A stretch of 64,000 nt of DNA from NCBI GenBank assembly GCA_964560345.1, contig CAZLLP010000005.1:47071-111070 (forward strand), read 5' to 3'. Made by a program: the position numbers and the translations under genes. This document shows positions 23,455 to 58,818 of the stretch, one piece after another (the first letter of the stretch is position 1; every line of letters starts with the position of its first letter). The notes under the pieces were generated by a model, which saw only the letters and a program-made list of their open reading frames with translations, was not told the origin of the DNA and made no database searches. This DNA comes from an uncultured Gemmatimonadaceae bacterium (lineage in GTDB: Bacteria; Gemmatimonadota; Gemmatimonadetes; Gemmatimonadales; Gemmatimonadaceae).

Positions 23455-23487
23455 GCTCGGCGCGGCAATCGTCCGGAATGTCGGCGG

Positions 23488-23530: not shown

Positions 23531-23896
23531 GGAGAGGGGGCGCCACCCGTTGGCGCGGATTTCAGACGCGAGGGACCGTCGGCGACGCATCGCGGTACAG
23601 GAGAGGTGCCCCGGTCCCGACGCCCGGCGCGACTGCCGAGCTGGTGCTAGCGAGGTCGTGGCCTCCTTGCGTGGAGAGGCACGCTGGTTGCAAGCGGGTG
23701 GGGTGCGGCCGATATTGCCGCCGGCCGTCGCGCGGGCGCACACGACAGTGCGACGGCGCGACGCTCGCCACCGGAAGGATGCACGACCGCTCATGATCGC
23801 CTCCTGTCTCACTGGCCTGTTCCCCGTCCACATGACCTGTTCAGCTGCAATCCAGCCAGCGCCCGCGGCGACGTTCGCGCCGGTCGAGGGGGAGCG

Positions 23897-24274: not shown

Positions 24275-24287
24275 GGACGACGACCGC

Positions 24288-40837: not shown

Positions 40838-41629
40838 ATGTTGTTTTTAGGGGGGGCCCCCCACGCCGCGGCCACTTCTCCCGCCGACATCGCAGCGGAA
40901 AGCGCCTCTCACCTCCCCACCGACCGAACCCCGCATCAGTTCCTCGACCGGACTCCGGTCGGCGCCCCCGACCGACGCCCCACGCCAACCCGCCCCTCCC
41001 CCGCCGAGCAGGCCGCCCTGCTCGACCGCCTCCGCGCCTACGGCCTGAACGGCATCTCGACCCTTCGCCTCACCCGCAATCGCAGCACCCTGGTCTCGTT
41101 CCGCGCCGGCACCCTCCGCGTCCATGAGGGCTTTGCCCGTGCGCCCCAGGAGATCCTCCGCGCCATTGCCGTCTTCGTCTCCGCGCGCGGCGCTGCCCGC
41201 CTCGCCGCCCGGCGCCTGATCGTCGCGCATCCACTGGAACGCGACACCACGCCGCGACCGCCACGGCGCACACCGCTGCACCCCGACGACCGCGCGATGG
41301 CCGAGCGGCTGCAACGCGAGCACGCCCGCCTCAATGCGCATCACTTCGGCGGCGCACTCGGCGCCATCCGCGTCACCGTCTCTCGCCGCATGAAGTCGCG
41401 CCTGGGGCACTACGCCCCCGCGCGGTCGCACCCGGCGGGGGCCGAGATCGCCATCAGCCGTCGCCACATTCGACGACACGGGTGGGAGGAAGCGATCGAC
41501 ACCCTCCTGCACGAGATGGTGCATCAGTGGCAGGAGGAGAGCGGGCACCCGATCGACCACGGAACTGCCTTCCGTCGCAAGGCGCGTGAGGTGGGAACGA
41601 CACCGCGCGCCAAGCGCGCGCTGCGCTGA
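40838..41629 (+). CDS. SprT-like zinc metallopeptidase domain protein
   Basis: C-terminal HEMVHQW (HExxH), with the ...SRLGHY... and ..ISRRH.. SprT pattern. This is only the last ~260 codons of track ORF 39530..41629. Start is either ATG 40838 (GGAGG 8 nt upstream) or ATG 40811. Confidence 0.65.
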   Translation: MLFLGGAPHAAATSPADIAAESASHLPTDRTPHQFLDRTPVGAPDRRPTPTRPSPAEQAALLDRLRAYGLNGISTLRLTRNRSTLVSFRAGTLRVHEGFARAPQEILRAIAVFVSARGAARLAARRLIVAHPLERDTTPRPPRRTPLHPDDRAMAERLQREHARLNAHHFGGALGAIRVTVSRRMKSRLGHYAPARSHPAGAEIAISRRHIRRHGWEEAIDTLLHEMVHQWQEESGHPIDHGTAFRRKAREVGTTPRAKRALR

Positions 41630-41657
41630 TCGCATTACGACCTGCCCACCTCGGCAG

Positions 41658-44165: not shown

Positions 44166-44516
44166 ATGGCCGCACTTCGCATCTTGATGTTGGCGATCGT
44201 GATCGCGTTAGGCACGGTGCTGGTGGCGTGGTGGATCGTCCCGGTGCTGGCGCTGGTCTTTGGCGTGGTGACGCACCGCACACGCCGTCCCGGTCTCACC
44301 GCCGCGCTGAGCGGAGCGGTGGCGTGGGGCGGATATCTCGCCCTGGCGAGCGTGGGCGGTGCGCCGGTGGGAAGTTTCGCGGGTGCGTTGGCGACGTCGA
44401 TGCAGCTTCCGGGGTGGGCGCCATTGGTCGCGACCCTGGTCTTTCCTGCCCTGCTCGCCGGATCGAGCGCCTACCTCGGCGCACGGCTGGGAGGGCGCTA
44501 TCTTTCTCCCGCATGA
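44166..44516 (+). CDS. small hypothetical membrane protein
   Basis: 116 aa from ATG 44166, about 4 hydrophobic helices. Tightly packed between the acylase stop and the gcdH start (ATGA overlap). Confidence 0.5.
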   Translation: MAALRILMLAIVIALGTVLVAWWIVPVLALVFGVVTHRTRRPGLTAALSGAVAWGGYLALASVGGAPVGSFAGALATSMQLPGWAPLVATLVFPALLAGSSAYLGARLGGRYLSPA

Positions 44517-45688
44517 CGACTGACTTCTTCAACATCGACAGCGCGCTGAGCGAAGACGAGCGCGCGGTGCGTGATAGCGTGCGTCGCTTTGTCGACGAGC
44601 GCGTCCTCCCCATCATCGGGCAGTGCTACGTGGACGGGCGTTTCCCGCGCGAGCTCATCCCCGAGATGGCCGAGCTGGGTGTCCTGGGGGCCAACCTCCC
44701 CGAGGAGTACGGCTGCGCGGGGCTCAACAACGTGGCGTACGGGCTCATCATGCAGGAGCTCGAGCGGGGCGATTCCGGCATCCGTTCGTTTGCCTCGGTG
44801 CAGGGTGCCCTGGTGATGTACCCCATCTACGCCTTCGGCAGCGAGGAGCACAAGCGCCACTGGCTCCCCAAGCTCGCCAAGGGTGAAGCGATCGGCTGCT
44901 TCGGCCTCACGGAGCCCGACTACGGCTCCAACCCGTCGGGGATGATCACGATGGCCCACCAGCAGCCCGACGGCACCTGGCTGCTCAACGGCGGCAAGAT
45001 GTGGATCACCAACGGGTCGCAGGCGCATGTCGCGGTGGTGTGGGCCAAGACCAACGGCGACAAGGACGCGTCGTCGATTCGCGGCTTCGTCGTCCCGACC
45101 GACTCCAAGGGCTTCAAGGCGAAGGACCAGAAGGGGAAGCTCTCGCTCCGCGCATCGGACACGAGCGAGCTCACCTTCGACAACGTGCACCTGCCGGCCG
45201 ACGCGCTGATGCCCAAGTCGGGGGGACTCAAGTCGCCCTTGATGTGCCTCACGCAGGCGCGCTACGGGATCTCGTGGGGCGCGTTAGGTGCGGCGATGGC
45301 CTGCTACGAGGAGTCGCTGGCCTACGCCAAGAACCGCATCATGTTCGACAAGCCCATCGCCGGCTTCCAGATCCAGCAGGAGCGCCTGGCCGACATGATC
45401 ACCGAGATCGTGAAGGGGCAGCTCGTGTCGTTGCACCTGGGACGCCTCAAGGACGCGGGGACGTTCACGCCGCAGCAGGTGTCGCTGGCCAAGCGCAACA
45501 ACGTCAACATCGCGACCAACATCGCCCGCGAGGCGCGCCGCCTGCTTGGCGCCAACGGGATCCTCGCCGAGTACTCGGCGATGCGCCACATGGCCAACCT
45601 GGAGAGCGTGTACACGTACGAAGGGACGCACGACGTCCACTCGCTCATCCTCGGGCAGGCCGTCACTGGCCTCAACGCGTTCAATTGA
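44513..45688 (+). CDS. gcdH: glutaryl-CoA dehydrogenase-type acyl-CoA dehydrogenase
   Basis: 391 aa from ATG 44513. ACAD pattern (GCFGLTEPDYGSNP, WITNG, YEGTHDVH). The N-terminal context resembles GCDH. Confidence 0.8.
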   Translation: MTTDFFNIDSALSEDERAVRDSVRRFVDERVLPIIGQCYVDGRFPRELIPEMAELGVLGANLPEEYGCAGLNNVAYGLIMQELERGDSGIRSFASVQGALVMYPIYAFGSEEHKRHWLPKLAKGEAIGCFGLTEPDYGSNPSGMITMAHQQPDGTWLLNGGKMWITNGSQAHVAVVWAKTNGDKDASSIRGFVVPTDSKGFKAKDQKGKLSLRASDTSELTFDNVHLPADALMPKSGGLKSPLMCLTQARYGISWGALGAAMACYEESLAYAKNRIMFDKPIAGFQIQQERLADMITEIVKGQLVSLHLGRLKDAGTFTPQQVSLAKRNNVNIATNIAREARRLLGANGILAEYSAMRHMANLESVYTYEGTHDVHSLILGQAVTGLNAFN

Positions 45689-45701
45689 GTCGCGCGGCGT
45701 G

Positions 45702-46808
45702 ATGCGGAACACACGTGTCTTCGAAGAGCCGGCTCGCCGGCTCTTCGTCGTTGTTGGCGCCCTGCTCGCGCTCGCTGTCGCACCGCACCGCGTGCGCGCG
45801 CAGGAGGCGGGGAATGCCCACGGTGCGGATGGAAAGGGCGAGGCGTCGCGTAGCCAGCCGCGCCAACCCACGACCGGATGGCTCCCGCGCGTGCGGCTGG
45901 ACAACGACGCGTACAACTTCTGGTTGCATCCGGGACACCGGAGCGACGAGGAGTACACCAACGGCGTCGTGCTGGGAATGGAGGCGCTCAAGGCGCCGGG
46001 GTGGGGGCGCGTGCTCGGGGGCGGCGCGCCCGGGTGTGTGCACTCCCGCGCCGACGAACGCGCCTGCCTGACGACGCTGCTGTTCATCGGCCAGGACATG
46101 TACACGCCCAACCTCGATCGCCCGCCGTTCTCGTACGTCGGATGGATGTACGAACGTCCCTACGCGGCGTGGCTGTACGTAGGCGGGGAAGGGCGACGCG
46201 TCTCGCGCCGCGCGCTGCGCACGTACTCGCTCTCGCTGGGGGTGACGGGCGCGCCGGCGTTAGGCAAGCTGGCCCAGTCGATCGCGCACCAGATCACCGC
46301 CAAGTACACCACCAAGGCGACCGGGTGGGAGACGCAAGTGGGCTTCGAGCCCGGCGTCCTGCTCGGCCTGCGACAATCGGTGCTGGCGCTGCGCTGGGCA
46401 CCCGGAGGCGTCGGCATCCTCGACCTGTCGCCGTCGGTCGGTGGGACGCTGGGGAACATTCGCACGGCGGCGGATGCCGGCGGAAAGTTACGCCTCGGGC
46501 TCAACCTCTCGCATCCGTGGGACCCGCGCGCGTGGCGCGGACGCTCCGACTGGGAGTTCAACATCAGTGCGGCCGGGCGGCGCGAGTACGTGGCGCACGA
46601 CTTCTCCCTCGACGGGACGCTGTTCCACGACGCCGACCGCCAGGTGACGCGCGTGCCGACGGTGAGCGAGTACGAGTTCGGAACTGCGCTGCGTCTTCAC
46701 CGGTTGACCGTCGGGTGGCGCGCGATCACCCGATCCCGGGAGTACACCACGGGGCCAGCGCGTCACGCCTTCAGCCAGATGTACACCGCCCTCGAGTTCC
46801 GCCCGTAG
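45702..46808 (+). CDS. LpxR-like outer-membrane protein (DUF2219, lipid A deacylase family)
   Basis: Signal peptide, then the RLDNDAYNF...RSDEEYTNG pattern of the DUF2219/LpxR family, with a beta-barrel-like C-terminus ending in F. Confidence 0.55.
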   Translation: MRNTRVFEEPARRLFVVVGALLALAVAPHRVRAQEAGNAHGADGKGEASRSQPRQPTTGWLPRVRLDNDAYNFWLHPGHRSDEEYTNGVVLGMEALKAPGWGRVLGGGAPGCVHSRADERACLTTLLFIGQDMYTPNLDRPPFSYVGWMYERPYAAWLYVGGEGRRVSRRALRTYSLSLGVTGAPALGKLAQSIAHQITAKYTTKATGWETQVGFEPGVLLGLRQSVLALRWAPGGVGILDLSPSVGGTLGNIRTAADAGGKLRLGLNLSHPWDPRAWRGRSDWEFNISAAGRREYVAHDFSLDGTLFHDADRQVTRVPTVSEYEFGTALRLHRLTVGWRAITRSREYTTGPARHAFSQMYTALEFRP

Positions 46809-46882
46809 TCGCGCCGTGTGCGCCGGGTGGCCATTCGACGTCGCCTTGCGACGTGCGGCGCCACCTTTCGCCTCTCCAGCGC

Positions 46883-47371
46883 ATGAGCGACGATCCGCAT
46901 CCGCGTGAGGGCGAACGCGCCCCCGACTTTGCCCTCCCCGACCTCGACGGTCGCCTCGTGTCGCTCGCCGAGGTGCGTCGAGCGCATCACGTCGTCATTC
47001 ACTTCACGCGCGAGTTCAGTTGAGCGTCGTGCCTCTGGCACGCCGCCCGGGTCGGGCGGGAGATCGGCAGTCTGAATCAGCTTGGGGCCACGGCGCTGGT
47101 AATTGGCGGCGGCGGCGTCGGGACCGGGTTGGTGCGCTCCATGGCGCTCCCGTATCCCGCGCTGGTCGACCGCGACCGGGCGACGTACAAGGCCTACGGG
47201 CTGTCGCGCGCGATGTTCATCATCCAGGAGAGCGCGACCTTCCTGGTCGATCGCGACGGGGTCGTGCGACACGCGCTGCGGTCAGTGAACCCGCAACTGT
47301 CGATGGACTGGGGGGCGCTGATGGCCGCCCTGCGCGCGCTCCCCGTTCCGCCGGCAGACGCTGCGGGATAG
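46883..47371 (+). CDS. peroxiredoxin-like (AhpC/TSA, Prx-like UxxC) protein with in-frame TGA at codon 47: candidate selenoprotein
   Basis: Track ORFs ...47023 and 47129..47371 are in the same frame and separated only by a TGA at 47021-47023. The joined product reads APDFALPDLDGRLVSLAEV..VVIHFTREFS-[TGA]-ASCLWH...ALPYPALVDRDRATYKAYGL...TFLVDRDGVVRH, a full redoxin fold. The TGA sits where the first Cys of the CxxC motif is expected. A hairpin lies 22-38 nt downstream. Confidence 0.6.
47043..47059 (+). promoter_or_regulatory. candidate bacterial SECIS-like hairpin
   Basis: CCGCCCG (47043-47049) pairs with CGGGCGG (47053-47059), a 7-bp stem with a GGU apical loop. The loop G lies about 29 nt after the U of the UGA. 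An alternative hairpin CGUGCC/GGCACG lies at 47028-47042. Confidence 0.4.
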
Positions 47372-47413
47372 CCGCGCAGCGTTAGGCGCCCGGTGCCGCT
47401 CGGCGACGAGCGC

Positions 47414-48259
47414 TCAGGCGCCCGTCACCGCCCGCGTGTCCCGGTAGCGCCGGGTGGCCAGCTGCAACATCCAGCGGGGCAGGTGGCGCAGGAGCACGAC
47501 GATCGACTTGTAGTGCCATCCCGGGATCACCACCGTCGGCCCGCGGCGCGCCACCGCCTCGAGCGAGGCCGCCACGACGACGTCCGCCTCGAGCCAGAGC
47601 GCGCCGGGGATGGACCGCATTGACATCGCGGCGCGCTGGTGGAATTCGGTGCGGGTGAAGCCCGGGCACAGCGCCTGTACGTAGATCCCGCGCCCGGCCA
47701 CTTCGGCGGCGAGCGCCTCCATCGCGAAGCGTTGATAGGCCTTGGTGGCGCAGTAGTTCACGTTCCCCGGGCTCGTTAGGTACGATGCCACCGACGCGAC
47801 GGTGACGATCGACCCGCGCCCGTACACCGCCATCGCGCGCACGGCGGCCTGCGTGAGGCGGTGCACCGCGAGGACGTGCAGCCGCACCATCGTCTCCTGC
47901 GCGTCCGGGTCGCCGGCGGCGATCGATCCCTTGGTCCCGAAGCCGGCGTTGTTCACCAACAGTGAGACCAGGCGCCCCTCATCGCTCGCGCCCTGTTCGA
48001 TGCGGGCGACCACGGCGTCGACCCCTGCGTCGGTCGCAAGATCGGCGGCGATCGTCTCCACCTCGATGCCGTGTGCGGCCCGCAACGACGTTGCGGTCGC
48101 CGCCAGCCGCTCGGCGTCTCGCGCCACCAGGATCAGCGCATGCCCGCGGGCGGCCAGGGCGCGGGCGTAGGCGGCGCCCAGTCCGGCTGTCGCCCCGGTG
48201 ATGAGGGCGGTCGGGGTGGATGGGCGACGGGCGGGCGCGGAATCGGAGTCGGGGTGCAT
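47414..48259 (-). CDS. SDR-family oxidoreductase
   Basis: TGATAGLG cofactor motif, NNAG, and catalytic YCATK (YxxxK). Start taken at ATG 48259. Confidence 0.85.
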   Translation of the reverse strand: MHPDSDSAPARRPSTPTALITGATAGLGAAYARALAARGHALILVARDAERLAATATSLRAAHGIEVETIAADLATDAGVDAVVARIEQGASDEGRLVSLLVNNAGFGTKGSIAAGDPDAQETMVRLHVLAVHRLTQAAVRAMAVYGRGSIVTVASVASYLTSPGNVNYCATKAYQRFAMEALAAEVAGRGIYVQALCPGFTRTEFHQRAAMSMRSIPGALWLEADVVVAASLEAVARRGPTVVIPGWHYKSIVVLLRHLPRWMLQLATRRYRDTRAVTGA

Positions 48260-48372
48260 GGGGGAAAGATGCGTGCGAACGACGGAATCCGAAGGGGCAT
48301 GCCGCGTGTCCTCCACTCCCGAGGGGCAGCCGCTAGATTTCCCCCCGCTTCCCTACACCTGGAGACGGAACG

Positions 48373-49124
<752 letters not shown>

Positions 49125-49125
<1 letters not shown>

Positions 49126-50114
49126 TGCCTAACGTCCTGGCATTTGCAGAAGCGCGCGGCGGTGAGCTGCGCAAGGTGGCGCTCGAGGCGGTGACCGCCG
49201 CGCGCCAGGTCGCCGACCAGATTGGCGGTGACGTGCACGCGGTGCTCGTCGGCGCCTCCGGCATTGCCGCAAAGGCGGCGACGCTGGCGGAGTACGGCGC
49301 CGACGTCGTCATCGTGAGCGAGCACGCCGGCTTCGCGAACTACTCCCCCGAAGCGACGGCGGCACTCGTGGCCGATCGCGCGAAGGGAGGCGACTATCGC
49401 GCCGTGATCTTCTCGGCGTCGCAGCAGGGGAAGGATCTCGCGCCGCGCACCGCCGCCAAGCTGCGCAGCGCGATCGCGACCGACGTGACGTCGTTTGCGG
49501 TGAGCGCCGATGCGGTGATCGTCACGCACCCCGGCTACACCGGAAAGGTTGTCCAGACGCTCAAGCTCGTCGGCACGCCGGCGATCTTCTCGGTTCGCCC
49601 GGGCGCCGTCACGCCGTCGCCAAAGGCGGGGGCGGGGCGCACGGAGCAGGCCACGCTCTCCGCCGATCCGGCCGCGGCCCGCGTCGTCATCACCGACACG
49701 ATCCTCGGCGATTCCAAGAAGCTCGATCTCGGTGAGGCACCGATCATCATCAGCGGCGGCCGCGGGCTCAAGGCGGCCGAGCACTTCAAGCTGGTGGAAG
49801 ATCTCGCGGCGGCCTTCGGCAATGCGGCGGTAGGGGCCACGCGCGCGGTGACCGACGAAGGGTGGCGCCCGCACAGCGACCAGATCGGCCAGACCGGAAG
49901 GCTCGTCTCCCCCGATCTCTACGTCGCGGTTGGCATCTCGGGTGCCATCCAGCACCTGGCGGGGATGCGCACTTCCAAGTGCATTGTGGCGATCAACAAG
50001 GACAAGGAGGCCCCGATCTTCAAGGTGGCCGACTACGGGATCGTGGGGGACGTTTTCGACGTGGTACCGGCGCTGACGGCGGCGGTGCAGCAGGCCAAGC
50101 AGTCGTCGAACTGA
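49125..50114 (+). CDS. etfA: electron transfer flavoprotein alpha subunit
   Basis: 329 aa with the C-terminal FAD domain motif ([11 protein letters not shown]...IVAINKD..APIF..ADYG). The start overlaps the etfB stop. Confidence 0.9.
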
Positions 50115-50180
50115 TCACGATGTAGCCGCGGCGGGTGCCTCTTGGCGCTCGCCGCGGTTTGACCTTCAGCACTCCCCTCC

Positions 50181-52265
50181 ATGTCCAACGTGGCGTTCGC
50201 CTTCGTCCTCACGCTGGCGCTGGCCTTCTTCTCGTATAACGCACAGCGGCTCGTCCGCTACCTGCGCATCGGGAACGGCGACTTCCGGCTCAACGACATC
50301 CCACGCCGCGTCTGGAACCTGTTCACGATCGGCATCGCGCAGACCAAGATCCTGCGCGATCCATCGGCTGGCCCGGTCCACGCGCTCGTCTTCTGGGGCT
50401 TTCTCGTCCTGCAGGTGGGGGCGCTGGAGATCATCCTGCACGGGTTGATTCCCGGCTTCAGCTACGCTGCGATCCTCCCCAAGCCGCTGCACTGGCTCTT
50501 CCTCGTCTCGCAGGAGCTGACGGCGGTGGCGGTGCTGGCGGCGGTGGCGTGGCTGCTCTATCGCCGCATCGTCGTGAAACCCAAGCGGCTGCAAGGCGAC
50601 GGCGTGCACTCGGGCGATGCGATCTTCATCCTCTCGGTGATTGGCGGGTTGATGGTCACGCTGATCATCACCGCGGCTGCTGAACGCGTGCTGGGGGCCG
50701 AGATCCCGATGATGGCGCAACCGGTGTCGGCGCCGCTGGCCGGGATGCTGGGGTGGATGTCGCCGGGAGCTGCAACCTTGGTGCGCAACACGAGCTGGTG
50801 GATCCACGCGTTGCTGATCCTCACCTTCCTCAACTACCTCCCGTACTCCAAGCACCTGCACGTCATCGTCTCGCTCCCCAACACCTTCCTCTCCAACACG
50901 AGCGGGCCGGGGACGGTGGGGGCGATGAAGCCGATGGACCTCGAGCAGGAGACGGAGGTCTTTGGCGCCGCCGACGTCACGCACCTGAGCTGGAAGAACC
51001 TGCTCGACGGCTACGCCTGCACCGAGTGCGGACGCTGCACGTCGGTCTGCCCCGCCAACCTCACCGGGAAGCTGCTGTCGCCGCGCAAGATCGTCGTCAA
51101 CACGCGGCAGCGCCTGCTCGAAGTCGCGCCGGCCATCGTCGGGGGCAACGACGTGTTCGGCATGCCGTTCATCGGCGCCGCCAGCACCGATGACGCCGCG
51201 CGCACCGCGCTGCTCGAGCACAAGCTCCTCGACAACTTCATCACCGAGGAAGAGCTGTGGGCGTGCACGTCGTGCCGCGCCTGCGTGTACGAGTGCCCGG
51301 TCTCGATCGACCAGCTCGAGATCATCAACGAGATGCGGCGCAACCTCGTCCTCACCGAGTCGCGCTTTCCCGAGGAGATCCTCCCGGCGTTCGAGTCGTT
51401 GGAGCGCAACGGCTCGCCGTGGGCGTTCCAGCCGTCGGAGCGTGAGAAGTGGGCCGAGGGGATGGACGTGCCGACGATGGCGGAGATGTGGGAGCGCGGC
51501 GAGCGCCCCGACATCCTCTTCTGGGTCGGCTGCATGGGATCGTTTGATGATCGCGCCAAGAAGACGACGGTCGCCTTTGCCCGCATCCTGCAGGCGGCGG
51601 GGATCAAGTTCGCCATCCTCGGGCAGGAAGAGAGCTGCAACGGCGACCCCGCGCGCCGCATGGGGAACGAGTACCTCTACCAGATGCTGGCCAAGCAGGC
51701 GATAGAGACGCTCGACCGCTACGAGGTCACCACGATCGTCACGTCGTGTCCGCACTGCTTCCACCAGATCGGGAACGAGTTCCCGCAGCTCGGCGGCAAC
51801 TACGAGGTGATTCACCACTCGACCTACATCGAGCGCCTGTTGGCCGACGAGATGGTCCCGCTCAAGCACGACGACGGGCAGAAGCTGGTGATGGCGTATC
51901 ACGACTCGTGCTACCTTGGGCGCTACAACGAGGTCTACGACGCTCCGCGCGAGGCGCTCAAGCGCGCGCTGCCGGTGGTGACGCTGGTCGAGGCGCCGCG
52001 TTCACGCGACAAGGGGCTGTGCTGCGGTGCCGGCGGTGGGCGCATGTGGATGGAAGAGCGCGTGGGGCAGCGCATCAACGTCGAGCGCAAGCAGGAACTG
52101 CTGGCGACCGGCGCCGACGCGGTGGCGGTCGCCTGTCCCTTCTGCATGACGATGCTCAACGATGCCGGGGCCAAGCTCGAGAGCACGGTGCCGGTGTATG
52201 ACATCGCGGAAGTCGTCGCCGCACGCATCGAGACTGGAGACGGGAGACGGGAGACGGGAGAATAG
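50181..52265 (+). CDS. membrane-bound (Fe-S) oxidoreductase, HdrD/GlpC-like with N-terminal multi-TM domain (EtfD-like)
   Basis: About 6 TM helices, then two 4Fe-4S motifs (CTECGRCTSVCP, CTSCRACVYECP) and two CCG-type Cys-rich domains. Directly follows etfBA. The last 11 codons come from a heptamer repeat array. Confidence 0.8.
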   Translation: MSNVAFAFVLTLALAFFSYNAQRLVRYLRIGNGDFRLNDIPRRVWNLFTIGIAQTKILRDPSAGPVHALVFWGFLVLQVGALEIILHGLIPGFSYAAILPKPLHWLFLVSQELTAVAVLAAVAWLLYRRIVVKPKRLQGDGVHSGDAIFILSVIGGLMVTLIITAAAERVLGAEIPMMAQPVSAPLAGMLGWMSPGAATLVRNTSWWIHALLILTFLNYLPYSKHLHVIVSLPNTFLSNTSGPGTVGAMKPMDLEQETEVFGAADVTHLSWKNLLDGYACTECGRCTSVCPANLTGKLLSPRKIVVNTRQRLLEVAPAIVGGNDVFGMPFIGAASTDDAARTALLEHKLLDNFITEEELWACTSCRACVYECPVSIDQLEIINEMRRNLVLTESRFPEEILPAFESLERNGSPWAFQPSEREKWAEGMDVPTMAEMWERGERPDILFWVGCMGSFDDRAKKTTVAFARILQAAGIKFAILGQEESCNGDPARRMGNEYLYQMLAKQAIETLDRYEVTTIVTSCPHCFHQIGNEFPQLGGNYEVIHHSTYIERLLADEMVPLKHDDGQKLVMAYHDSCYLGRYNEVYDAPREALKRALPVVTLVEAPRSRDKGLCCGAGGGRMWMEERVGQRINVERKQELLATGADAVAVACPFCMTMLNDAGAKLESTVPVYDIAEVVAARIETGDGRRETGE
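52230..52262. repeat. GAGACGG heptamer array forming the 3' end of the EtfD-like CDS
   Basis: GAGACTG GAGACGG GAGACGG GAGACGG GAGAA. It encodes ...ETGDGRRETGE-stop and ends 7 nt before the next ATG. Confidence 0.8.
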
Positions 52266-52268
52266 GCG

Positions 52269-52769
52269 ATGGTGCGGAAGCGATGGACGGCGGTCGGGCT
52301 CGTGTTTCTGCTCCTTGGTGCCTGCGGGGGCGAACAATTGCCTAACGCGGACAGTGTCATCGCGGCCGAACAGGCGCCAGCGCCGGCGGCGGCTGCCGAC
52401 TCCACGATGGGTGCGCCGACGGCGGGGGAGACCAATACGCTGCCGAAGTCGTCGCCGTCCGCGGCGGGGGAGTATCGCCTGGCGGGGAACGAGCCGTTCT
52501 GGTCGGTGCGCATCACGGCCAAGGGGCTCACCTACACGACCCCCGACTACCAGAAGGGGATCCTCTTTCCCGCCACCGCCCCCGAGGCCAGCGGGACGAC
52601 GCTGCGATGGGTCGCGCTCACCCCGCCCCCCGAGGCGCACACGCTCGAGGTGACGCTGGAAGACGCCAAGTGCCAGGACTCGATGGCCGACAAGACCTGG
52701 ACGCATCGCGCCACCGTCACCTTCGACGGGACCAGACTTTCCGGGTGCGGCGAGCGCCTGACGAAGTAG
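52269..52769 (+). CDS. hypothetical lipoprotein (COG3650-like)
   Basis: Lipobox LLLGAC, then a GNEPFWSV...C.D........F.G....GCG pattern. Confidence 0.55.
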   Translation: MVRKRWTAVGLVFLLLGACGGEQLPNADSVIAAEQAPAPAAAADSTMGAPTAGETNTLPKSSPSAAGEYRLAGNEPFWSVRITAKGLTYTTPDYQKGILFPATAPEASGTTLRWVALTPPPEAHTLEVTLEDAKCQDSMADKTWTHRATVTFDGTRLSGCGERLTK

Positions 52770-52801: not shown

Positions 52802-53470
52802 CTAACGCACGCGCAGGACGTGCAACTGGATGTCGTGCTTCTGGGCCCCTTCGGCAAAGGGCGACGTCCAGTGCTCGGTGAGCGCCAGGCCCCCCTCCTC
52901 GGCGGCCAGCAGGAACGATTCCAGTGACAGGCGCCCCGGGTCGGCGATCAGCGCGTAGCCGTCGTCGCGCACGGTGGCGATCACGGCGTCGGCCACCAGT
53001 TCGCCGTGCGTGTGCTCGTACAGCACGTCCGAGGCGACCACCACGTGGAAGCGCCCCAGGTCACGCGGCATGTCGCGCCAGTCGACCATGCGCGTGGACG
53101 GATATTGCCCCGTGTTGCGTGCGACGTTGACGCGCGTGAACTCGAGTGCGTCGGGGTAGTAGTCCGTGGCTGTGACCTTGTAGCCGGCGGCGGCGAGCGC
53201 GCAGGCCACCAGCCCGCTGCCACACCCCAGCTCCAGCGCGCGCCGTCCATCACCCTTGTGACGCACCACGTGCTCGGCGAGCACCTTGGCCGAGGGCCAG
53301 ACGTCGGCCCAGTACGGAAGGCGTTCGTCCTTGAGGTAGTCGGCTTCGCTGATGAGCGTGTCGGCGTTGCGCGGGTGGGCGAGGACAAAGGTGCGCTTGC
53401 CGCATGCGACCTCCGTCTCCGTCACGTCGAAGCGTGCACGGAGACCCTCCAACTCTTCTTCCCACGTCAC
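52802..53470 (-). CDS. class I SAM-dependent methyltransferase
   Basis: Motif I LELGCGSGLVA, a post-I acidic residue (TATDYY) and DVLY. The GTG start overlaps the moeA stop (GTGA). Confidence 0.75.
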   Translation of the reverse strand: MTWEEELEGLRARFDVTETEVACGKRTFVLAHPRNADTLISEADYLKDERLPYWADVWPSAKVLAEHVVRHKGDGRRALELGCGSGLVACALAAAGYKVTATDYYPDALEFTRVNVARNTGQYPSTRMVDWRDMPRDLGRFHVVVASDVLYEHTHGELVADAVIATVRDDGYALIADPGRLSLESFLLAAEEGGLALTEHWTSPFAEGAQKHDIQLHVLRVR

Positions 53471-54717
53471 AGCGCGAAGACCTCGGACAGGGAGGCGTCG
53501 TCCGAGACGAGGAGCGCGTGCACCACCTCGCCGGCTTCGCAGCGCGGCCGTTCCTCGGGGACGATCAGCAGCGCGTTGGCGCGTGCCATCGAGGTCAGGA
53601 TCCCCGAGCCCTGCGGGCCGGTGAGCCGCGCGTGCATGCGTCCGTCGTCGCCGGCGCGCACGATGCCGCGCAGGAAGTGCGTGAGGCGCGCGCCGATGCT
53701 CACCGGTTCGTCGAGGATGACCGGGACCGGGTGACGAAAGAGGCGCGCGTGTCCTTGCAGCCGGCGGAGCACGGGGCGCACGAACAGTTCGAACGTCACC
53801 ATCACCGAGACGGGGTTACCGGGGAGCCCCACCCACGGCGTGCCGTGCAGCGTCCCGAAGCCGATGGGGGCGCCGGGGCGCATGCGCACCTTCCAGAAAT
53901 CGAGGCGAGCCCCTAACGAGGCGAGCACCTCGCGCGTGTAGTCGAAGGCCCCCACCGACGCCCCCGCCGACGTGATGATGAGGTCGACCCCCCTGGCCTG
54001 TTCGAGCAGCGCGCGCAGCGATTCGGGCGTGTCGGAGGCGTTCCCCAGCAGGAGCGGAATGCCACCGTTGCTCCTGACGAGCGCACTCAGGGTGTACGAG
54101 TTGGAGGTGACGATCTTGCGCCCGGCCAGCACCTCGTGGAACCGGTCGAGGTCCACCAGTTCGTCGCCCGACCCGAGGATCGCGACCACCGGGCGCCGAT
54201 AGACATCGACCGAGGGGAGCCCGAGCGAGGCGAGGACGCCGACCTGCGCCGGGGCGATCGGTGTCCCGGCCGGGATCACGACGTCGTCGGCGACAAAGTC
54301 CTCCCCACGCGGACGGATGTTCTTGCGCAGGTCGCGCGCGTCGCGGATGGCGACGACCTCGAGTCCCCCGTCGGTATCCTCCACGCGCACCACGGTATCG
54401 GCGCCGTCGGGGAGCGGCGCGCCGGTCATGATGCGCGTGCAGATCCCTTCGCGCACCGGGAGGGTGGGAAACTCCCCGGCTGCCACCGTCTCCTGCACCG
54501 TCAGGCGCACTGGCGATTCGGCGGTTGCCCCGGCGAGGTCGGTGCCACGCACGGCATACCCGTCCATGGCCGAGTTGTCCCAGTGGGGGAGCGTGTAGCT
54601 GGCGACCGCATCGCGGGCGAGGACGCGTCCCACCGCCTCGAGCAGCGGGACGCGTTCGGGGGCGAGCGCGGCAATGTTGGCCAGGCTGCGGGCGCTCGCC
54701 TCGGCGACAGTGAGCAT
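53467..54717 (-). CDS. moeA: molybdopterin molybdenumtransferase MoeA
   Basis: 416 aa with the MoeA domain pattern (SAMDGYAV, TGAPLP.GADTVV, SGDEL, ITSGG-like TSAGASVG, GLPGNPVS). Confidence 0.9.
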   Translation of the reverse strand: MLTVAEASARSLANIAALAPERVPLLEAVGRVLARDAVASYTLPHWDNSAMDGYAVRGTDLAGATAESPVRLTVQETVAAGEFPTLPVREGICTRIMTGAPLPDGADTVVRVEDTDGGLEVVAIRDARDLRKNIRPRGEDFVADDVVIPAGTPIAPAQVGVLASLGLPSVDVYRRPVVAILGSGDELVDLDRFHEVLAGRKIVTSNSYTLSALVRSNGGIPLLLGNASDTPESLRALLEQARGVDLIITSAGASVGAFDYTREVLASLGARLDFWKVRMRPGAPIGFGTLHGTPWVGLPGNPVSVMVTFELFVRPVLRRLQGHARLFRHPVPVILDEPVSIGARLTHFLRGIVRAGDDGRMHARLTGPQGSGILTSMARANALLIVPEERPRCEAGEVVHALLVSDDASLSEVFAL

Positions 54718-56258
54718 CAGCGCGTCCCTCCCGCCAGGCGCATCCCCGCCAGCTGCACCGCCAGCGTGTCCTGCACGCGCTCGATCTCGCGCGTGGGGAC
54801 CGTAAAGTGGTTGGAGAGGACGCTGAACAGGAGGAGGCGGCCGTCGGCCGTGGTGACGTAGCCGGAGAGCGACCGCACCATGTCGAGCGTCCCGGTCTTG
54901 GCGTGCACGTTGCCTTCTGCGACGGTCCCCTTCATCCGGTTGCGAATGGTGCCGTCGATGCCCGCGATGGGGAGGGCGTCGTAGAAGATCTTGAAGTCGG
55001 GCGACTGCCGCATGGCGTCGAGGACGCGGATGATGGTCTCGGGGGTGATGACGTCATGCCGCGAGAGCCCGCTGCCATCGCGCACGACGAAGCCGTCCGG
55101 GGCCGCCCCCCAGGCGAGCACCTGATCGCGCACCACTCGCGCCCCGCTGTCGGCACTGCCGACGCCGGCCCGCGCCCTGCCTAACGTCCGCAGCAGGATT
55201 TCGCCGATCTGGTTCTGCGACGGCTTCTCGAAGGCGGCGAGCACCTGCGAGAGCGGCGGCGACATCATCGAGAAGAGCGGATAGGTCGAGGCGCCGCGCC
55301 ACATCGACAATCCGCCGTCAATCGCGATCCCGCGCGCGGACAATGCTTCGTGCAGCGCGAGGAGATAGGCGCGCGCCGGGTCGCGGTGCGTGATCTCCAC
55401 CACCGCCGAGTCGCCAGCCGCAATGGTGCCGTCGATGATGACGGTGGCGGCGTCGGTGGAGTCCTGCCGGATGGTGAGCGTCCGCGGGCGCCGCACGTTG
55501 GCGCCGGAGACCGGGAGCGGCGCGACCGTCTGCGCCCACACGCGCACGCGCGGGACCGACTGGGCGGGGGCGGTGCGCGCGGTCGGCACGTCGCCCGCGC
55601 TGGCCCCGCCACGCACGATCACGCGCGAGAAGCCCTCGTTGAAGTACAACTCGTCGACGCCGGCGGAGTAGGCAAAGTCGAGGTCGTCGTACGACCAGCC
55701 GAAGCCTAACGTGGCATCGGGAAAGGCATCCGCCCCTGGAACCAGCGCTCCGGTGACTCGCGTCACGCCGCGCGCCGCGAGCGAATCGGCCATGGCCCGC
55801 AGCGGTGCCATGGCATCCCTGGCCATGTGGTCGCTGATGCTCGGGTCGCCGGTTCCGCTCACCACCAGGTCGCCGCGCAGCTCGTTCCCCACGATGGGGC
55901 CGGTCGCTGCCACCGTGGTGCTGAACCGGAAACCGGTCCCCAGCAGGTGCAAGGCCACCGCCCCGGTGAGGATCTTCTGGTTGGAGGCAGGGATGAAGAG
56001 CTTCCCGGCGTTGTGCGAGACCAGGGTGTCACCGGAGATCGGGTCGACCACGAGGATCCCTAACTGCGCGCTGCGAAACTTGGCATCCGCGACCATCGAG
56101 TCGACGGTGCGCCGGACGGCGGCCACCGCCGGCGAGACCCGTGGCGCCGGTGGTGTGGCGGCGCGACCCGGCGCGCACGCCGCGACGGCGAGCGACCCGG
56201 AGAGGACGGCGGCAAGTGCAGCCGGCGTGACGCGTGGCGATGCGAAGTGACGGAGCAT
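54717..56258 (-). CDS. dacB: D-alanyl-D-alanine carboxypeptidase/endopeptidase (PBP4, peptidase S13)
   Basis: Signal peptide, SxxK as PASNQK, SGN-like and KTG (HAKTGTL) motifs. The stop overlaps the moeA start (ATGA at 54717). Confidence 0.85.
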   Translation of the reverse strand: MLRHFASPRVTPAALAAVLSGSLAVAACAPGRAATPPAPRVSPAVAAVRRTVDSMVADAKFRSAQLGILVVDPISGDTLVSHNAGKLFIPASNQKILTGAVALHLLGTGFRFSTTVAATGPIVGNELRGDLVVSGTGDPSISDHMARDAMAPLRAMADSLAARGVTRVTGALVPGADAFPDATLGFGWSYDDLDFAYSAGVDELYFNEGFSRVIVRGGASAGDVPTARTAPAQSVPRVRVWAQTVAPLPVSGANVRRPRTLTIRQDSTDAATVIIDGTIAAGDSAVVEITHRDPARAYLLALHEALSARGIAIDGGLSMWRGASTYPLFSMMSPPLSQVLAAFEKPSQNQIGEILLRTLGRARAGVGSADSGARVVRDQVLAWGAAPDGFVVRDGSGLSRHDVITPETIIRVLDAMRQSPDFKIFYDALPIAGIDGTIRNRMKGTVAEGNVHAKTGTLDMVRSLSGYVTTADGRLLLFSVLSNHFTVPTREIERVQDTLAVQLAGMRLAGGTR

Positions 56259-56383
56259 GCGAGAAAGGAAGCGGGCCGTGCGGGCGGACAGGCATGTTGC
56301 GCGTCGCTGGCGCGCGCCCCGCACATTATCGCCGCGTCATGGCCCGCGCGAGCCGTCCCGCAGCATGCGCGGCACCGGTCCTG

Positions 56384-56911
56384 CTAGCGCGGCTGCGCGG
56401 CGGCCCACTCCTGCACGAACGTCGCGAGGGCGTCGAGCCAGTCGTCTCGCCCGAGGTCAAAGGCACGTACCGCTCCGACGGTCGCAGGGGCGTCGGTCAC
56501 GACCGCCAGCAACGTCGCGGCATCTATCAACCCGTCCTCCACCAACGAGCGCGAGTGCGCGGCGCGGCGCACCACCTCGAGCTTGGGCAACGCCGACGCC
56601 TTGAATCCCTCGCACAGCACCAGGTCGGCGTCGCGCATGTGACGCTCGGCGACCTCCTGCGGCGTCAGTTCCTCGCTCATGCGCGCCACCAGGGCAAACC
56701 GATCGGGGGCGATCATCGCCACGCGCTCGGCTTCCCCCTCGTGAAAGTGGCGGTACGTGTCGGTGTTGGACGGATCGAGATTGAAGGTGTGCGTCCCATG
56801 CTTGATGGTCATCACCCGCACGCCGCGTCGCCGCAACTCGGCCGACAGGCGCACGACGAGCGTGGTCTTCCCCGAATGCTTGCGGCCGACGACCGAAAGA
56901 AGTGGCGGCAT
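56384..56911 (-). CDS. mobB: molybdopterin-guanine dinucleotide biosynthesis adapter protein MobB
   Basis: 175 aa with the P-loop VVGRKHSGKTTL and the MobB pattern IKH...D....D. Confidence 0.85.
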   Translation of the reverse strand: MPPLLSVVGRKHSGKTTLVVRLSAELRRRGVRVMTIKHGTHTFNLDPSNTDTYRHFHEGEAERVAMIAPDRFALVARMSEELTPQEVAERHMRDADLVLCEGFKASALPKLEVVRRAAHSRSLVEDGLIDAATLLAVVTDAPATVGAVRAFDLGRDDWLDALATFVQEWAAAQPR

Positions 56912-56914
56912 GGT

Positions 56915-57556
56915 CTAGGACGAGGTGTCGAACGGCATGGCGAGGGAGCCGGACGCGAGCGACTCGGCGACGCGCTCGGCCTGTGCGCGCTCTTCCGGAG
57001 TATTCACGTTCAGGAACAACACCGAGGGATCGCCAAAGGTCGCAACCTGCTCGGCGCCGAGTCGCGCCACGCGCACCGCATCGAAGAAGGCGATCACGCG
57101 GCGGTCTCCGCGATCGAGCGCCGCCGTGATGGCGTCGAGGCAGGGCGGGGCATACCAGGCGCACATCGGCTCCAGCCCGCGCTTGCTCCCGCTCTCCGGG
57201 AGCGCGGCGTCAACGCCCGATTCGCCTAACGCGCGCAGCCGGGCGAGCAGCGCGGGGCTCACGAACGGCATGTCCCACGCGACAACCAGTGCGGCCCCGC
57301 CGGCGTGCGAGAGCGCGGCGTGCAGTCCGCCGAGGCTCCCTTGGCCCGCGCGGATGTCGCGCGCGACGCGAACGCCCGGGAGCCACTCCGAGGCGCGGTC
57401 GTCGTTGGCGATGAGGAGCAGGTCGTCAGTCACGGCGCGCAGCGCATCGGCCACACGGTCGATGATGCGACGTCCGCCGACCACTTCGAGCCCCTTGGGA
57501 TGCCCGCCGAACCGTGTCGCCCCCCCTCCGGCGAGGATCACTCCCGTGCAGGGCAT
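56915..57556 (-). CDS. mobA: molybdenum cofactor guanylyltransferase MobA
   Basis: ATG at 57556 inside track ORF 56915..58174. Carries ILAGGGATRFGG, the GSLGG and DMPF motifs. Confidence 0.85.
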   Translation of the reverse strand: MPCTGVILAGGGATRFGGHPKGLEVVGGRRIIDRVADALRAVTDDLLLIANDDRASEWLPGVRVARDIRAGQGSLGGLHAALSHAGGAALVVAWDMPFVSPALLARLRALGESGVDAALPESGSKRGLEPMCAWYAPPCLDAITAALDRGDRRVIAFFDAVRVARLGAEQVATFGDPSVLFLNVNTPEERAQAERVAESLASGSLAMPFDTSS

Positions 57557-57561
57557 CGCGC

Positions 57562-58323: not shown

Positions 58324-58361
58324 GCCCACAATCTGCGCACGCGCTCGCCCTCTCGCACGCC

Positions 58362-58817: not shown

Positions 58818-58818
58818 C

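What the first reader, a model, noticed from the sequence alone, without database searches (positions are those of the whole stretch)
46883..47371. Candidate selenoprotein: Prx-like redoxin with UGA replacing the first Cys of the CxxC motif
The two track ORFs ending at 47023 and starting at 47129 are in the same frame and separated only by a TGA at 47021-47023. Reading through gives a 162-codon AhpC/TSA-type redoxin: ...APDFALPDLDGRLVSLAEVRRAHHVVIHFTREFS-U-ASC-LWHAARVGREIGSLNQLGATALVIGGGG...LPYPALVDRDRATYKAYGL...ATFLVDRDGVVRHAL....

The TGA falls exactly where Prx-like and thioredoxin-fold proteins carry the first redox Cys (F.R...C..C), giving a UxxC motif. That arrangement is known in bacterial Prx-like, thioredoxin-like and AhpD-like selenoproteins. 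Downstream of the UGA there is a 7-bp GC stem with a GGU loop (47043-47059, loop G about 29 nt from the UGA). This is compatible with the position of a bacterial SECIS apical loop. The presence of fdhD and Moco genes in the window is consistent with, but does not prove, a selenoprotein formate dehydrogenase and Sec machinery in this genome.
Basis: partly seen in the sequence, partly recalled or inferred. Interest (0 to 1): 0.7.

Follow-up and report, generated by a model that had tools for sequence, protein, structure and literature searches.

The report
Selenocysteine redox protein, peroxiredoxin fold
The apparent stop codon inside this small Gemmatimonadota gene almost certainly encodes selenocysteine in a thioredoxin-style U-x-x-C active site on a peroxiredoxin scaffold; this is a known kind of bacterial selenoprotein, but databases list this subfamily only as truncated fragments.

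Summary
Window 46883-47371 (+) is one 162-codon AhpC/TSA-fold gene interrupted only by TGA at 47021-47023.

The evidence points to a genuine selenoprotein gene:
- The TGA is at the same codon in all 19 orthologous loci retrieved (11 distinct sequences, Gemmatimonadota MAGs and metagenomes) and in 5 distant relatives (28-36% identity, GC 46-72%).
- Both halves are under equal purifying selection (dN/dS 0.25 and 0.23).
- Twenty-nine full-length homologue clusters carry Cys at that position (CxxC).
- A hairpin 22-38 nt after the UGA (47043-47059) is kept by compensatory changes at 4 of 6 pairs, with an invariant loop G and U. It suppresses synonymous change about 12-fold.

The Sec sits where classical peroxiredoxins have Thr. 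The Prx catalytic Pro and Arg are replaced, so the protein is a thioredoxin-type selenol/thiol oxidoreductase on a BCP-like scaffold, not a canonical peroxidase.

This matches the published "Prx-like thiol:disulfide oxidoreductase (PF00578, UxxC)" class, so it is a new member of a known kind. No curated NCBIfam model covers this subfamily, and every Sec-form entry I recovered is a fragment.

Not shown: selA/B/C/D in this genome (none in the window), and actual selenium incorporation.

The parts
46883..47371 (+). Complete selenoprotein gene: 162 residues including Sec47, AhpC/TSA (peroxiredoxin-like) fold, no signal peptide evident
   Evidence: Translation. Pfam PF00578 at 9.9e-15. The start M[ST][DE] and the whole reading frame are conserved in 11 distinct orthologues. 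dN/dS is 0.25 upstream and 0.23 downstream of the UGA.
47021..47023 (+). In-frame UGA read as selenocysteine (Sec47), the first position of the U-x-x-C redox motif
   Evidence: TGA at the same codon in 19/19 orthologous loci and 5/5 distant relatives, never TAA, TAG or a sense codon. It aligns with Cys in 29 full-length homologue clusters.
47030..47032 (+). Cys50 codon (TGC), the second redox residue of U-x-x-C. It aligns with the peroxidatic Cys of BCP and AhpE.
   Evidence: Invariant in the family alignment. Aligned to the TPGC Cys of BCP and the TGIC Cys of AhpE.
47009..47011 (+). Arg43 codon, invariant in the family. It occupies the position of the Pro in the peroxiredoxin P-x3-T-x2-C motif, giving an R-x3-U-x2-C signature.
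   Evidence: Invariant column R43. Position relative to the BCP motif from the BLASTP alignment.
47043..47059 (+). SECIS-type hairpin: 5' arm 47043-47048 (CCGCCC), loop 47049-47053 (GGGUC), 3' arm 47054-47059 (GGGCGG). The loop G at 47050 and U at 47052 are invariant. The hairpin lies inside the coding sequence (Ala-Ala-Arg-Val-Gly-Arg).
   Evidence: 95.2% of cells paired. 4 of 6 pairs have compensatory double changes. 0/500 shuffles reach the observed values, and slid controls are at most 56% paired. RNAalifold predicts the same helix. dS in codons +1 to +13 is 0.065 against 0.73-0.94 in the rest of the gene. 9/11 against 4/60 single-codon columns, Fisher p = 4.7e-7.
47028..47042 (+). Proximal hairpin (CGUGCC-UCU-GGCACG) between the UGA and the SECIS hairpin. 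It is invariant within the Gemmatimonadota clade but not kept in distant relatives. It may be a clade-specific lower part of the element or a by-product of the Cys and His codons.
   Evidence: Predicted in the MFE fold. In the first 13-sequence alignment it was 92.3% paired with no compensatory change, and pairs broke in each of the three distant sequences then included (L020, L021, L023).

Best explanation
Window 46883-47371 encodes a cytoplasmic, 162-residue selenoprotein of the peroxiredoxin (AhpC/TSA, BCP-like) fold. UGA-47 is recoded as selenocysteine.

Recoding (inferred from the anatomy): during translation, a stem-loop inside the coding sequence 22-38 nt downstream of the UGA acts as a bacterial SECIS. 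It has a 6-bp GC stem and a 5-nt loop with invariant G and U. It recruits SelB carrying Sec-tRNA(Sec) to the ribosome, so Sec is inserted instead of termination.

Chemistry (inferred from the fold and from homologues): Sec47 sits at the N-cap of the first active-site helix and Cys50 in its first turn. That is the thioredoxin CxxC geometry. Sec47 is the exposed nucleophile that attacks an oxidised substrate (a disulfide, a sulfenic acid, or possibly a hydroperoxide). Cys50 then resolves the adduct into an intramolecular selenenylsulfide, and a cellular thiol reductant such as thioredoxin re-reduces it.

The canonical peroxiredoxin catalytic set is absent: Pro is replaced by Arg43, Thr by Sec47 and Arg by Ser117. 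I therefore rate a thiol/selenol-disulfide oxidoreductase role above a classical peroxidase role, roughly 0.55 against 0.3.

Shown here: the conserved UGA, the Cys homologues, selection on both halves, the conserved and covarying hairpin, and the fold. Inferred: SelB dependence, the actual Sec insertion, the substrate and the reductant.
For: 1. UGA conservation. TGA is at the same codon in 19/19 orthologous loci (11 distinct sequences down to about 62% identity) inside REF[ST]-U-A[SA]C-L[WR]HAARVGRE. It is also at the same codon in 5 distant relatives from genomes of 46-72% GC: FIREFN-U-MQC, FMRDFY-U-MAC, FLRAFT-U-TVC, MREFT-U-MGC and LRAFT-U-MSC.
2. Selection. dN/dS is 0.25 before and 0.23 after the UGA, with dS 0.73 and 0.94, so both halves are translated and selected together.
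3. Cys homologues. 29 representative clusters have Cys and 1 has Ser at the site, in F[MI]RE[FY]x-C-xx-C.
4. RNA element. dS drops to 0.065 in codons +1 to +13. Single-codon columns are 9/11 there against 4/60 elsewhere, p = 4.7e-7. The helix is 95% paired, 4/6 pairs have compensatory changes, 0/500 shuffles reach the observed values, and loop G and U are invariant.
5. Sec-form-specific peptide. Family entries truncated at the site encode Gln-Leu (CAG UUG, the loop) at +9/+10 in 17/19 cases, against 7/29 Cys forms, p = 1.7e-5.
6. No code reassignment. UGA is the ordinary stop of 17 of 37 long ORFs in the window.
7. Fold. An AlphaFold model of the Cys homologue P0085 has pLDDT 92.7, with the Sec-equivalent Cys at the helix N-cap. 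The nearest solved folds are BCP1 and Bcp4 at TM 0.84-0.86, with ResA at 0.68-0.70.
8. Phylum plausibility. selA and selD were each reported in 0.864 of Gemmatimonadota MAGs in PMC8938466 source data.
9. Literature. Prx-like proteins with a thioredoxin-like UxxC motif are an established predicted selenoprotein class (PMC1088965, PMC2398784 and PMC13188914).
Against: - No selA, selB, selD or tRNA-Sec gene is in the 64-kb window or in any fetched locus. The rest of the genome could not be searched.
- A survey of more than 5,200 genomes lists no Gemmatimonadetes among Sec-utilising organisms (PMC5029168 Table S2). Sec decoding in this lineage therefore rests on MAG annotations from another study.
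- The hairpin's folding energy is not exceptional for this GC content (z = -0.34), and no Rfam family matches it.
- Within the Gemmatimonadota clade the hairpin is invariant, so all the covariation comes from five distant relatives, one of which (L024) needs a 1-nt register shift.
- There is no expression, labelling or proteomic evidence.
Confidence: 0.88

Rival explanations
1. Nonsense pseudogene: a former Cys codon (TGC/TGT) mutated to TGA, and only a 46-residue fragment, or nothing, is made.
For: A single TGY-to-TGA change would produce it. Gene callers treat the locus as fragments. No Sec machinery is seen in the window.
Against: The same TGA is in 19/19 loci and 5/5 distant relatives. The sequence downstream of the TGA is under the same purifying selection as the sequence upstream (dN/dS 0.23 against 0.25, with dS near 0.9). 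There are no frameshifts or further stops in any copy.
Confidence: 0.02
2. Split gene: translation terminates at the UGA and the C-terminal part is made separately from an internal start (termination-reinitiation), giving two polypeptides that assemble.
For: In several distant relatives an ATG directly follows the TGA (TGAATG), which looks like a coupled stop-start.
Against: In the window and all its orthologues the codon after TGA is GCN (Ala), and there is no ATG, GTG or TTG in the next 13 codons. Gene callers pick different, non-conserved starts 13-40 codons further on. The most conserved residues, Cys50 and His53, lie between the TGA and those starts. Met at that position also occurs in Cys forms (C-M-Q-C, C-M-S-C), so the ATG is simply part of the motif. 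A split would also delete the catalytic residue.
Confidence: 0.03
3. SelB-independent read-through: the UGA is suppressed by a standard tRNA (inserting Cys, Trp or Arg), and the downstream hairpin acts as a read-through stimulator rather than a SECIS.
For: Sec machinery is not demonstrated for this genome. Gemmatimonadetes are absent from the 2016 list of Sec users. Downstream hairpins can stimulate read-through in other systems (general knowledge).
Against: The position is the redox-active Cys of a CxxC, the typical Sec/Cys exchange site. [quoted passage not shown] The same arrangement recurs in unrelated genomes. If Cys were the inserted residue, a TGY codon would do the same job at no cost, as it does in 29 homologue clusters. 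selA and selD are reported in most Gemmatimonadota MAGs of one study.
Confidence: 0.05
4. Sequencing or assembly artefact at this position.
For: None specific.
Against: The identical codon is present in independent assemblies from JGI, ENA, NCBI and Logan samples.
Confidence: 0.005

Closest known systems
Prx-like thiol:disulfide oxidoreductase selenoproteins ("Prx-like protein" / "Prx-like 1"; PF00578 with a UxxC motif; Kryukov & Gladyshev 2004; Zhang & Gladyshev 2005 and 2008; reference WP_010940744.1)
   Same: The Pfam domain is the same (PF00578). The thioredoxin-like UxxC motif replaces the TxxU of Sec-peroxiredoxin, exactly as described in PMC1088965 and tabulated in PMC2398784 and PMC13188914. 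Both Sec and Cys forms occur, and the SECIS lies within the coding sequence just after the UGA.
   Different: Direct homology to the reference sequence was not tested. This subfamily has its own signature: R-x3-U-x2-C, then QLGR or RVGR, then QES[AG]T. It occurs here in Gemmatimonadota, a phylum not listed among Sec users in the 2016 survey. No entry recovered for it is annotated as a selenoprotein.
BCP/PrxQ and AhpE peroxiredoxins (for example S. solfataricus Bcp1 3drn and Bcp4 3hjp, M. tuberculosis AhpE 1xvw)
   Same: These are the closest solved folds (TM 0.84-0.86) and the closest solved sequences (E about 1e-5). Cys50 aligns with the peroxidatic Cys.
   Different: The Prx catalytic Thr is replaced by Sec, the Pro by Arg43 and the Arg by Ser117. 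The redox pair is CxxC-like, not a peroxidatic Cys plus a distant resolving Cys.
SelL-related redox protein (NCBIfam NF040769), the bacterial relatives of eukaryotic selenoprotein L
   Same: It is the best NCBIfam hit for the window protein and for all ten relatives tested, and it is also a Prx-like fold.
   Different: Scores are 42.5 bits for the window protein and 55-82 bits for relatives, against a cutoff of 120 bits. These proteins are not members by NCBI's criterion. The match covers only about the first 100 residues of the 173-position model.
ResA/TlpA-type thiol-disulfide oxidoreductases (CxxC on a thioredoxin fold with Prx-like insertions)
   Same: The CxxC-type motif has the same geometry at the helix N-terminus. 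There are weak sequence hits (E 1e-3 to 5e-5) and structural similarity of TM 0.68-0.70.
   Different: ResA and TlpA are membrane-anchored extracytoplasmic proteins with a WCxxC motif. This protein has no signal or anchor sequence, and it is structurally closer to BCP.
Sec-containing peroxiredoxin PrxU (TxxU; NF040737)
   Same: It is a selenoprotein of the same Pfam family.
   Different: In PrxU the Sec replaces the peroxidatic Cys (TxxU). Here Sec is three residues earlier and the peroxidatic-position Cys is retained (UxxC). NF040737 does not hit the window protein at E <= 0.01.

Membership tests
Bacterial selenoprotein gene (UGA-Sec with an intragenic SECIS) | In-frame UGA conserved among orthologues, with the reading frame conserved on both sides | tested here: met
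   19/19 loci and 5/5 distant relatives. dN/dS is 0.25 upstream and 0.23 downstream.
Bacterial selenoprotein gene (UGA-Sec with an intragenic SECIS) | Homologues with Cys aligned to the UGA position | tested here: met
   29 Cys and 1 Ser among full-length representative clusters. Column C47 is invariant in alignment A4.
Bacterial selenoprotein gene (UGA-Sec with an intragenic SECIS) | [quoted passage not shown] | tested here: met
   Helix at UGA +22 to +38 with a 5-nt loop and invariant G and U. 95% of cells paired, 4/6 compensatory pairs, 0/500 shuffles reach the observed values. The criterion is as described in PMC1088965.
Bacterial selenoprotein gene (UGA-Sec with an intragenic SECIS) | selA, selB, selC (tRNA-Sec) and selD present in the same genome | not testable with these tools
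   None are in the 64-kb window or the fetched loci. Only indirect evidence is available: selA and selD in 0.864 of Gemmatimonadota MAGs in PMC8938466.
Bacterial selenoprotein gene (UGA-Sec with an intragenic SECIS) | Selenium actually incorporated at the UGA position | not testable with these tools
   This needs 75Se labelling or mass spectrometry.
Prx-like thiol:disulfide oxidoreductase selenoprotein (PF00578, UxxC) | AhpC/TSA (PF00578) domain above the gathering score | tested here: met
   55 bits against a cutoff of 26, E 9.9e-15.
Prx-like thiol:disulfide oxidoreductase selenoprotein (PF00578, UxxC) | Thioredoxin-like UxxC motif rather than TxxU | tested here: met
   U47-A-S-C50. Sec aligns with the Prx Thr and Cys50 with the peroxidatic Cys.
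Prx-like thiol:disulfide oxidoreductase selenoprotein (PF00578, UxxC) | Detectable homology to the reference member WP_010940744.1 | not tested
   The reference sequence could not be obtained with the tools available.
Canonical peroxiredoxin (BCP/PrxQ type) | P-x3-T/S-x2-C active-site motif | tested here: not met
   The aligned residues are R43-x3-U47-x2-C50.
Canonical peroxiredoxin (BCP/PrxQ type) | Conserved catalytic Arg (G-R-x-T-F in BCP, N-R-G-T-F in AhpE) | tested here: not met
   It aligns with Ser117 in Q-E-S-A-T-F, which is invariant in the clade.
Canonical peroxiredoxin (BCP/PrxQ type) | Peroxiredoxin fold | tested here: met
   A model of the Cys homologue P0085 (pLDDT 92.7) matches Bcp1 and Bcp4 at TM 0.84-0.86.
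SelL-related redox protein (NF040769) | Score at or above NCBIfam's curated cutoff of 120 bits | tested here: not met
   42.5 bits for the window protein and 55-82 bits for ten relatives.

The most novel reading that the evidence does not exclude
This is not just another "Prx-like 1" sequence. It is the Gemmatimonadota branch of a distinct, so far uncatalogued selenoprotein subfamily with the signature R-x3-U-x2-C, then QLGR or RVGR, then QES[AG]T. In this subfamily Sec forms outnumber Cys forms: about 100 of 136 representative clusters are truncated fragments against 30 full-length forms (29 Cys, 1 Ser). No curated model covers it, and the SECIS loop visibly dictates two amino acids of the protein. 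It would also be the first documented selenoprotein family in Gemmatimonadota.
Probability: 0.4. Interest if true: 0.45.

Novelty: new member of a known kind. Interest (0 to 1): 0.4.

Why it matters
- Annotation. Every Sec-form database entry I recovered for this subfamily is a 46-residue stub plus an unrelated-looking "peroxiredoxin" fragment of about 90-115 residues. The family is therefore invisible to standard pipelines and to selenoproteome counts. A dedicated model built on the R-x3-U-x2-C signature and the SECIS would repair hundreds of entries.
- Biology. It adds Gemmatimonadota, a widespread soil and wastewater phylum absent from the 2016 catalogue of Sec users, to the lineages with a well-supported selenoprotein.
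- Illustration. It is a clean example of an RNA signal constraining protein sequence: the loop encodes Gln-Leu or Arg-Val only in Sec forms.
- Limits. It does not change any concept, because UxxC Prx-like selenoproteins have been known from sequence analysis since 2004-2005.

Tried and rejected
- Rfam. The gathering-threshold scan of the whole window and a permissive scan of 46990-47110 returned only chance hits, with no SECIS family. Rfam has no general bacterial SECIS model that fits.
- Single-sequence folding. The z-score was -0.34, which is uninformative in 68% GC DNA. I relied on comparative analysis instead.
- Representative search. I used the exact post-UGA window sequence instead.
- Collection scans. 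The genome-contig scan gave only 2 loci and the metagenome scan 5.
- tRNA-Sec. None found in the window or in 13 loci.
- Second selenoprotein candidate. A scan for in-frame TGA with coding-like flanks found only the target plus ordinary adjacent genes and antisense frames.
- Literature on Sec in Gemmatimonadota. No dedicated paper was found. The only evidence is the absence from PMC5029168 Table S2 and the phylum-level selA and selD frequencies in PMC8938466.
- Proximal hairpin 47028-47042. I considered it as part of the SECIS. It is not conserved in distant relatives, so I list it only as clade-specific.
- Functional inference from gene neighbourhood. The LpxR, SDR and ETF synteny holds only within the Gemmatimonadota clade. 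Distant relatives sit next to DUF411, PhyH or TetR genes, so no partner can be inferred.
Full report
**Observation.** The region reads as the first-stage reader described. ATG at 46883, an in-frame TGA at 47021-47023 and TAG at 47369-47371 give a 162-residue read-through product, MSDDPHP...HFTREFS-U-ASCLWHAARVGRE...QESATFLVDRDGVVRH.... The two mechanically listed ORFs that end at 47023 and start at 47129 share a frame. With Cys substituted for the stop, the protein matches Pfam AhpC-TSA (PF00578) at E 9.9e-15 and 55 bits against a cutoff of 26, and also matches Redoxin. The hairpin CCGCCCG-GGU-CGGGCGG lies at 47043-47059.

**Is it more than chance?** The single sequence cannot answer this. The 60 nt after the UGA fold no better than shuffled controls (z = -0.34), and Rfam has no match. 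The answer comes from comparison.

In a search of 5.8 billion proteins, the 11 closest homologues (67-87% identity) were all fragments of 89-108 residues covering only the part after the stop. I fetched their DNA, together with loci from genome and metagenome scans, giving 19 orthologous loci with 11 distinct sequences. Records that carry an organism name are Gemmatimonadota, Gemmatimonadetes or Gemmatimonadaceae MAGs. Every one has TGA at the same codon, never TAA, TAG or a sense codon, within REF[ST]-U-A[SA]C-L[WR]HAARVGRE. Gene order is also conserved: LpxR, this gene, a convergent short-chain dehydrogenase, then ETF beta and alpha and an Fe-S/CCG oxidoreductase.

Nei-Gojobori estimates over the 11 sequences give dN/dS 0.25 (dS 0.73) for the 42 codons before the UGA and 0.23 (dS 0.94) for codons +14 to +100 after it. 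Both halves are therefore translated and selected as one protein. TGA is also the ordinary stop of 17 of 37 long ORFs in the window, so the genetic code is not reassigned.

**The RNA element.** The 13 codons after the UGA are almost invariant at the nucleotide level. Nine of 11 amino-acid-invariant degenerate codons use a single codon in all 11 sequences, against 4 of 60 elsewhere (Fisher p = 4.7e-7). dS there is 0.065, about 11-14 times lower than in the flanks. That is a constraint on the RNA, not on the protein.

Within the clade the hairpin cannot show covariation because it does not vary, so I looked further out. An exhaustive search of 1.84 billion representatives with the post-UGA sequence found 136 relatives. 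Many of them are about 100-115 residues long and start exactly at the x-x-C of the motif. DNA for five of these comes from genomes of 46, 67, 69, 72 and 59% GC, and the proteins are 28-36% identical to the window protein. All five show a TGA at the same codon: FIREFN-U-MQC, FMRDFY-U-MAC, FLRAFT-U-TVC, MREFT-U-MGC and LRAFT-U-MSC.

In a 15-sequence ungapped alignment anchored on the UGA, the helix formed by columns 23-28 with 34-39 (window 47043-47048 with 47054-47059) is paired in 95.2% of cells. Four of six pairs have compensatory double changes. None of 500 shuffles reach the observed pairing, double-change or covariation values. Versions slid by 1-3 nt reach at most 56% pairing. RNAalifold finds the same helix.

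The loop is 5 nt: GGGUC in the Gemmatimonadota clade and AGUUG or AGUUA elsewhere. The G at loop position 2 and the U at position 4 are invariant. One relative (L024) keeps a GC hairpin at the same place but in a register shifted by 1 nt with an AGUU loop. [quoted passage not shown] From my own knowledge, the usual search range for the UGA-to-loop distance is about 16-37 nt, and here it is 28-30 nt.

The proximal hairpin at 47028-47042 is not kept outside the clade.

A further signature comes from the peptide the loop encodes. Family entries truncated at the site encode Gln-Leu (CAG UUG, the loop) at +9/+10 in 17 of 19 cases, against 7 of 29 Cys forms (p = 1.7e-5). The SECIS thus dictates protein sequence only where a UGA has to be recoded.

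**Cys homologues and active site.** Full-length representatives carry F[MI]RE[FY]x-C-x-x-C, with 29 Cys and 1 Ser at the Sec position. In a 16-sequence family alignment the invariant residues are G10, R43, U/C47, C50 and D96. F41, H53, D123 and P137 are nearly invariant.

Against true peroxiredoxins (BCP and M. tuberculosis AhpE), Cys50 aligns with the peroxidatic Cys, Sec47 with the conserved Thr of P-x3-T-x2-C, Arg43 with the Pro, and the catalytic Arg with Ser117. From my own knowledge (Copley et al. 2004), the Prx TxxC corresponds to the CxxC of thioredoxin-like ancestors.

An AlphaFold model of the full-length Cys homologue P0085 is confident (pLDDT 92.7, pTM 0.89). It places the Sec-equivalent Cys46 at the N-cap and Cys49 in the first turn of helix 47-58. 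Its nearest solved folds are Bcp1 and Bcp4 (TM 0.84-0.86), with ResA at 0.68-0.70. The protein is therefore a BCP-like scaffold carrying a thioredoxin-type selenol/thiol pair and lacking the canonical peroxidase catalytic residues.

**Mechanism.** The most likely mechanism is SelB/SECIS-dependent insertion of Sec at codon 47. Sec47 acts as the exposed nucleophile, a Se-S bond forms with Cys50 after it attacks an oxidised substrate, and a cellular thiol system re-reduces the bond. I rate a disulfide or sulfenate reductase role above a classical peroxidase role because Thr, Pro and Arg of the Prx site are all replaced, but this ranking is inference. Gene neighbourhood gives no help, because the synteny is clade-specific and distant relatives have unrelated neighbours.

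**Rivals.**
- A nonsense pseudogene is excluded by conservation of the TGA and by selection downstream of it.
- A split gene with reinitiation is excluded for this clade. No start codon follows the UGA for 13 codons, gene callers choose inconsistent starts, and the most conserved residues (Cys50, His53) lie in between. The ATG that follows the TGA in some distant relatives is also present in Cys forms as C-M-x-C.
- SelB-independent read-through cannot be excluded without the genome, but it is unlikely given the site, the SECIS-like element and its recurrence across lineages.
- An assembly artefact is excluded by the independent assemblies.

**What is missing.** The window holds no selA, selB, selD or tRNA-Sec, and neither do the fetched loci. 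fdhD (57562-58752, minus strand, PF02634 at 2e-53), mobA, mobB and moeA are present, but they are only circumstantial. The 2016 survey of more than 5,200 bacterial genomes lists no Gemmatimonadetes among "all Sec-utilizing organisms" (PMC5029168 Table S2). In contrast, the Fig. 3a source data of a hadal-sediment MAG study give selA (K01042) and selD (K01008) each in 0.864 of its Gemmatimonadota MAGs (PMC8938466). Sec decoding in uncultured members of the phylum is therefore plausible, but it is not shown for this genome.

[quoted passage not shown] The window gene meets both stated criteria for that class.

The best NCBIfam hit for the window protein and for ten relatives is NF040769, "SelL-related redox protein". 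The scores are 42.5 and 55-82 bits against a cutoff of 120. No curated model therefore covers this subfamily. A profile search of the named protein database returned only "peroxiredoxin", "redoxin domain-containing" or "AhpC" labels and no full-length Sec entry.

**Verdict.** This is a genuine and well-supported selenoprotein gene, a new member of a known kind. Its added value lies in annotation, in extending the taxonomic range of selenoproteins, and in the clear SECIS-imposed constraint on the protein. My confidence that the UGA encodes Sec through the downstream hairpin is 0.88.

Noticed in passing
L015:1-3244 compared with window 45546-47371: Locus L015 is nearly identical to the window through LpxR and the 46 N-terminal codons of the selenoprotein gene (45/46 residues). 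After the invariant SECIS stretch, its C-terminal half is only about 63% identical and resembles other clade members. This is either a recombination breakpoint at the invariant 40-nt element or a metagenome assembly chimera formed across it.
   Followed up: partly
family representatives (P0027-P0161): About 100 of the 136 representative clusters of this family are N-terminally truncated entries, against 30 full-length forms (29 Cys, 1 Ser). This suggests Sec forms outnumber Cys forms. Fragments from short contigs could inflate the count, and I did not verify DNA for most of them.
   Followed up: partly
window 53467-59105 (minus strand): A molybdenum-cofactor cluster: moeA (53467-54717), mobB (56384-56911), mobA (the C-terminal part of ORF 56915-58174, with the real start near 57550), fdhD (57562-58752) and a 6-pyruvoyl-tetrahydropterin synthase-family gene (58362-59105). 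It is interrupted by a D-Ala-D-Ala carboxypeptidase gene (54717-56324). It implies a bis-MGD enzyme such as formate dehydrogenase elsewhere in the genome.
   Followed up: partly
window 44228-52265: A conserved Gemmatimonadota gene block surrounds the selenoprotein gene: acyl-CoA dehydrogenase, LpxR-family outer-membrane protein, the Sec gene, a convergent SDR, ETF beta, ETF alpha, and a 694-residue Fe-S/CCG-domain oxidoreductase (a likely ETF-linked electron acceptor). No functional link to the selenoprotein could be established.
   Followed up: partly
window 12270-13073, 23435-24355 (-), 40847-41635 (-), 52269-52769, 58819-59514 (-): These ORFs have no Pfam hit at the thresholds used. Two of them (52269-52769 and 58819-59514) also have no NCBIfam hit. 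Only those two and 23435-24355 passed... correction: only 52269-52769 and 58819-59514 passed my GC3 coding filter.
   Followed up: no
window 14920-18030 (minus strand): A 1036-residue ORF whose only Pfam hit is an AAA_16 ATPase domain (residues 251-407). It may be a large STAND/LuxR-type regulator. I did not examine it further.
   Followed up: no
L021:2055-2875 and L022:810-1711: In one distant lineage the Sec-form gene directly follows, and overlaps by its start, a DUF411 (metal-binding CopG-like) gene. This hints at a possible metal or redox-stress context in that lineage only.
   Followed up: no
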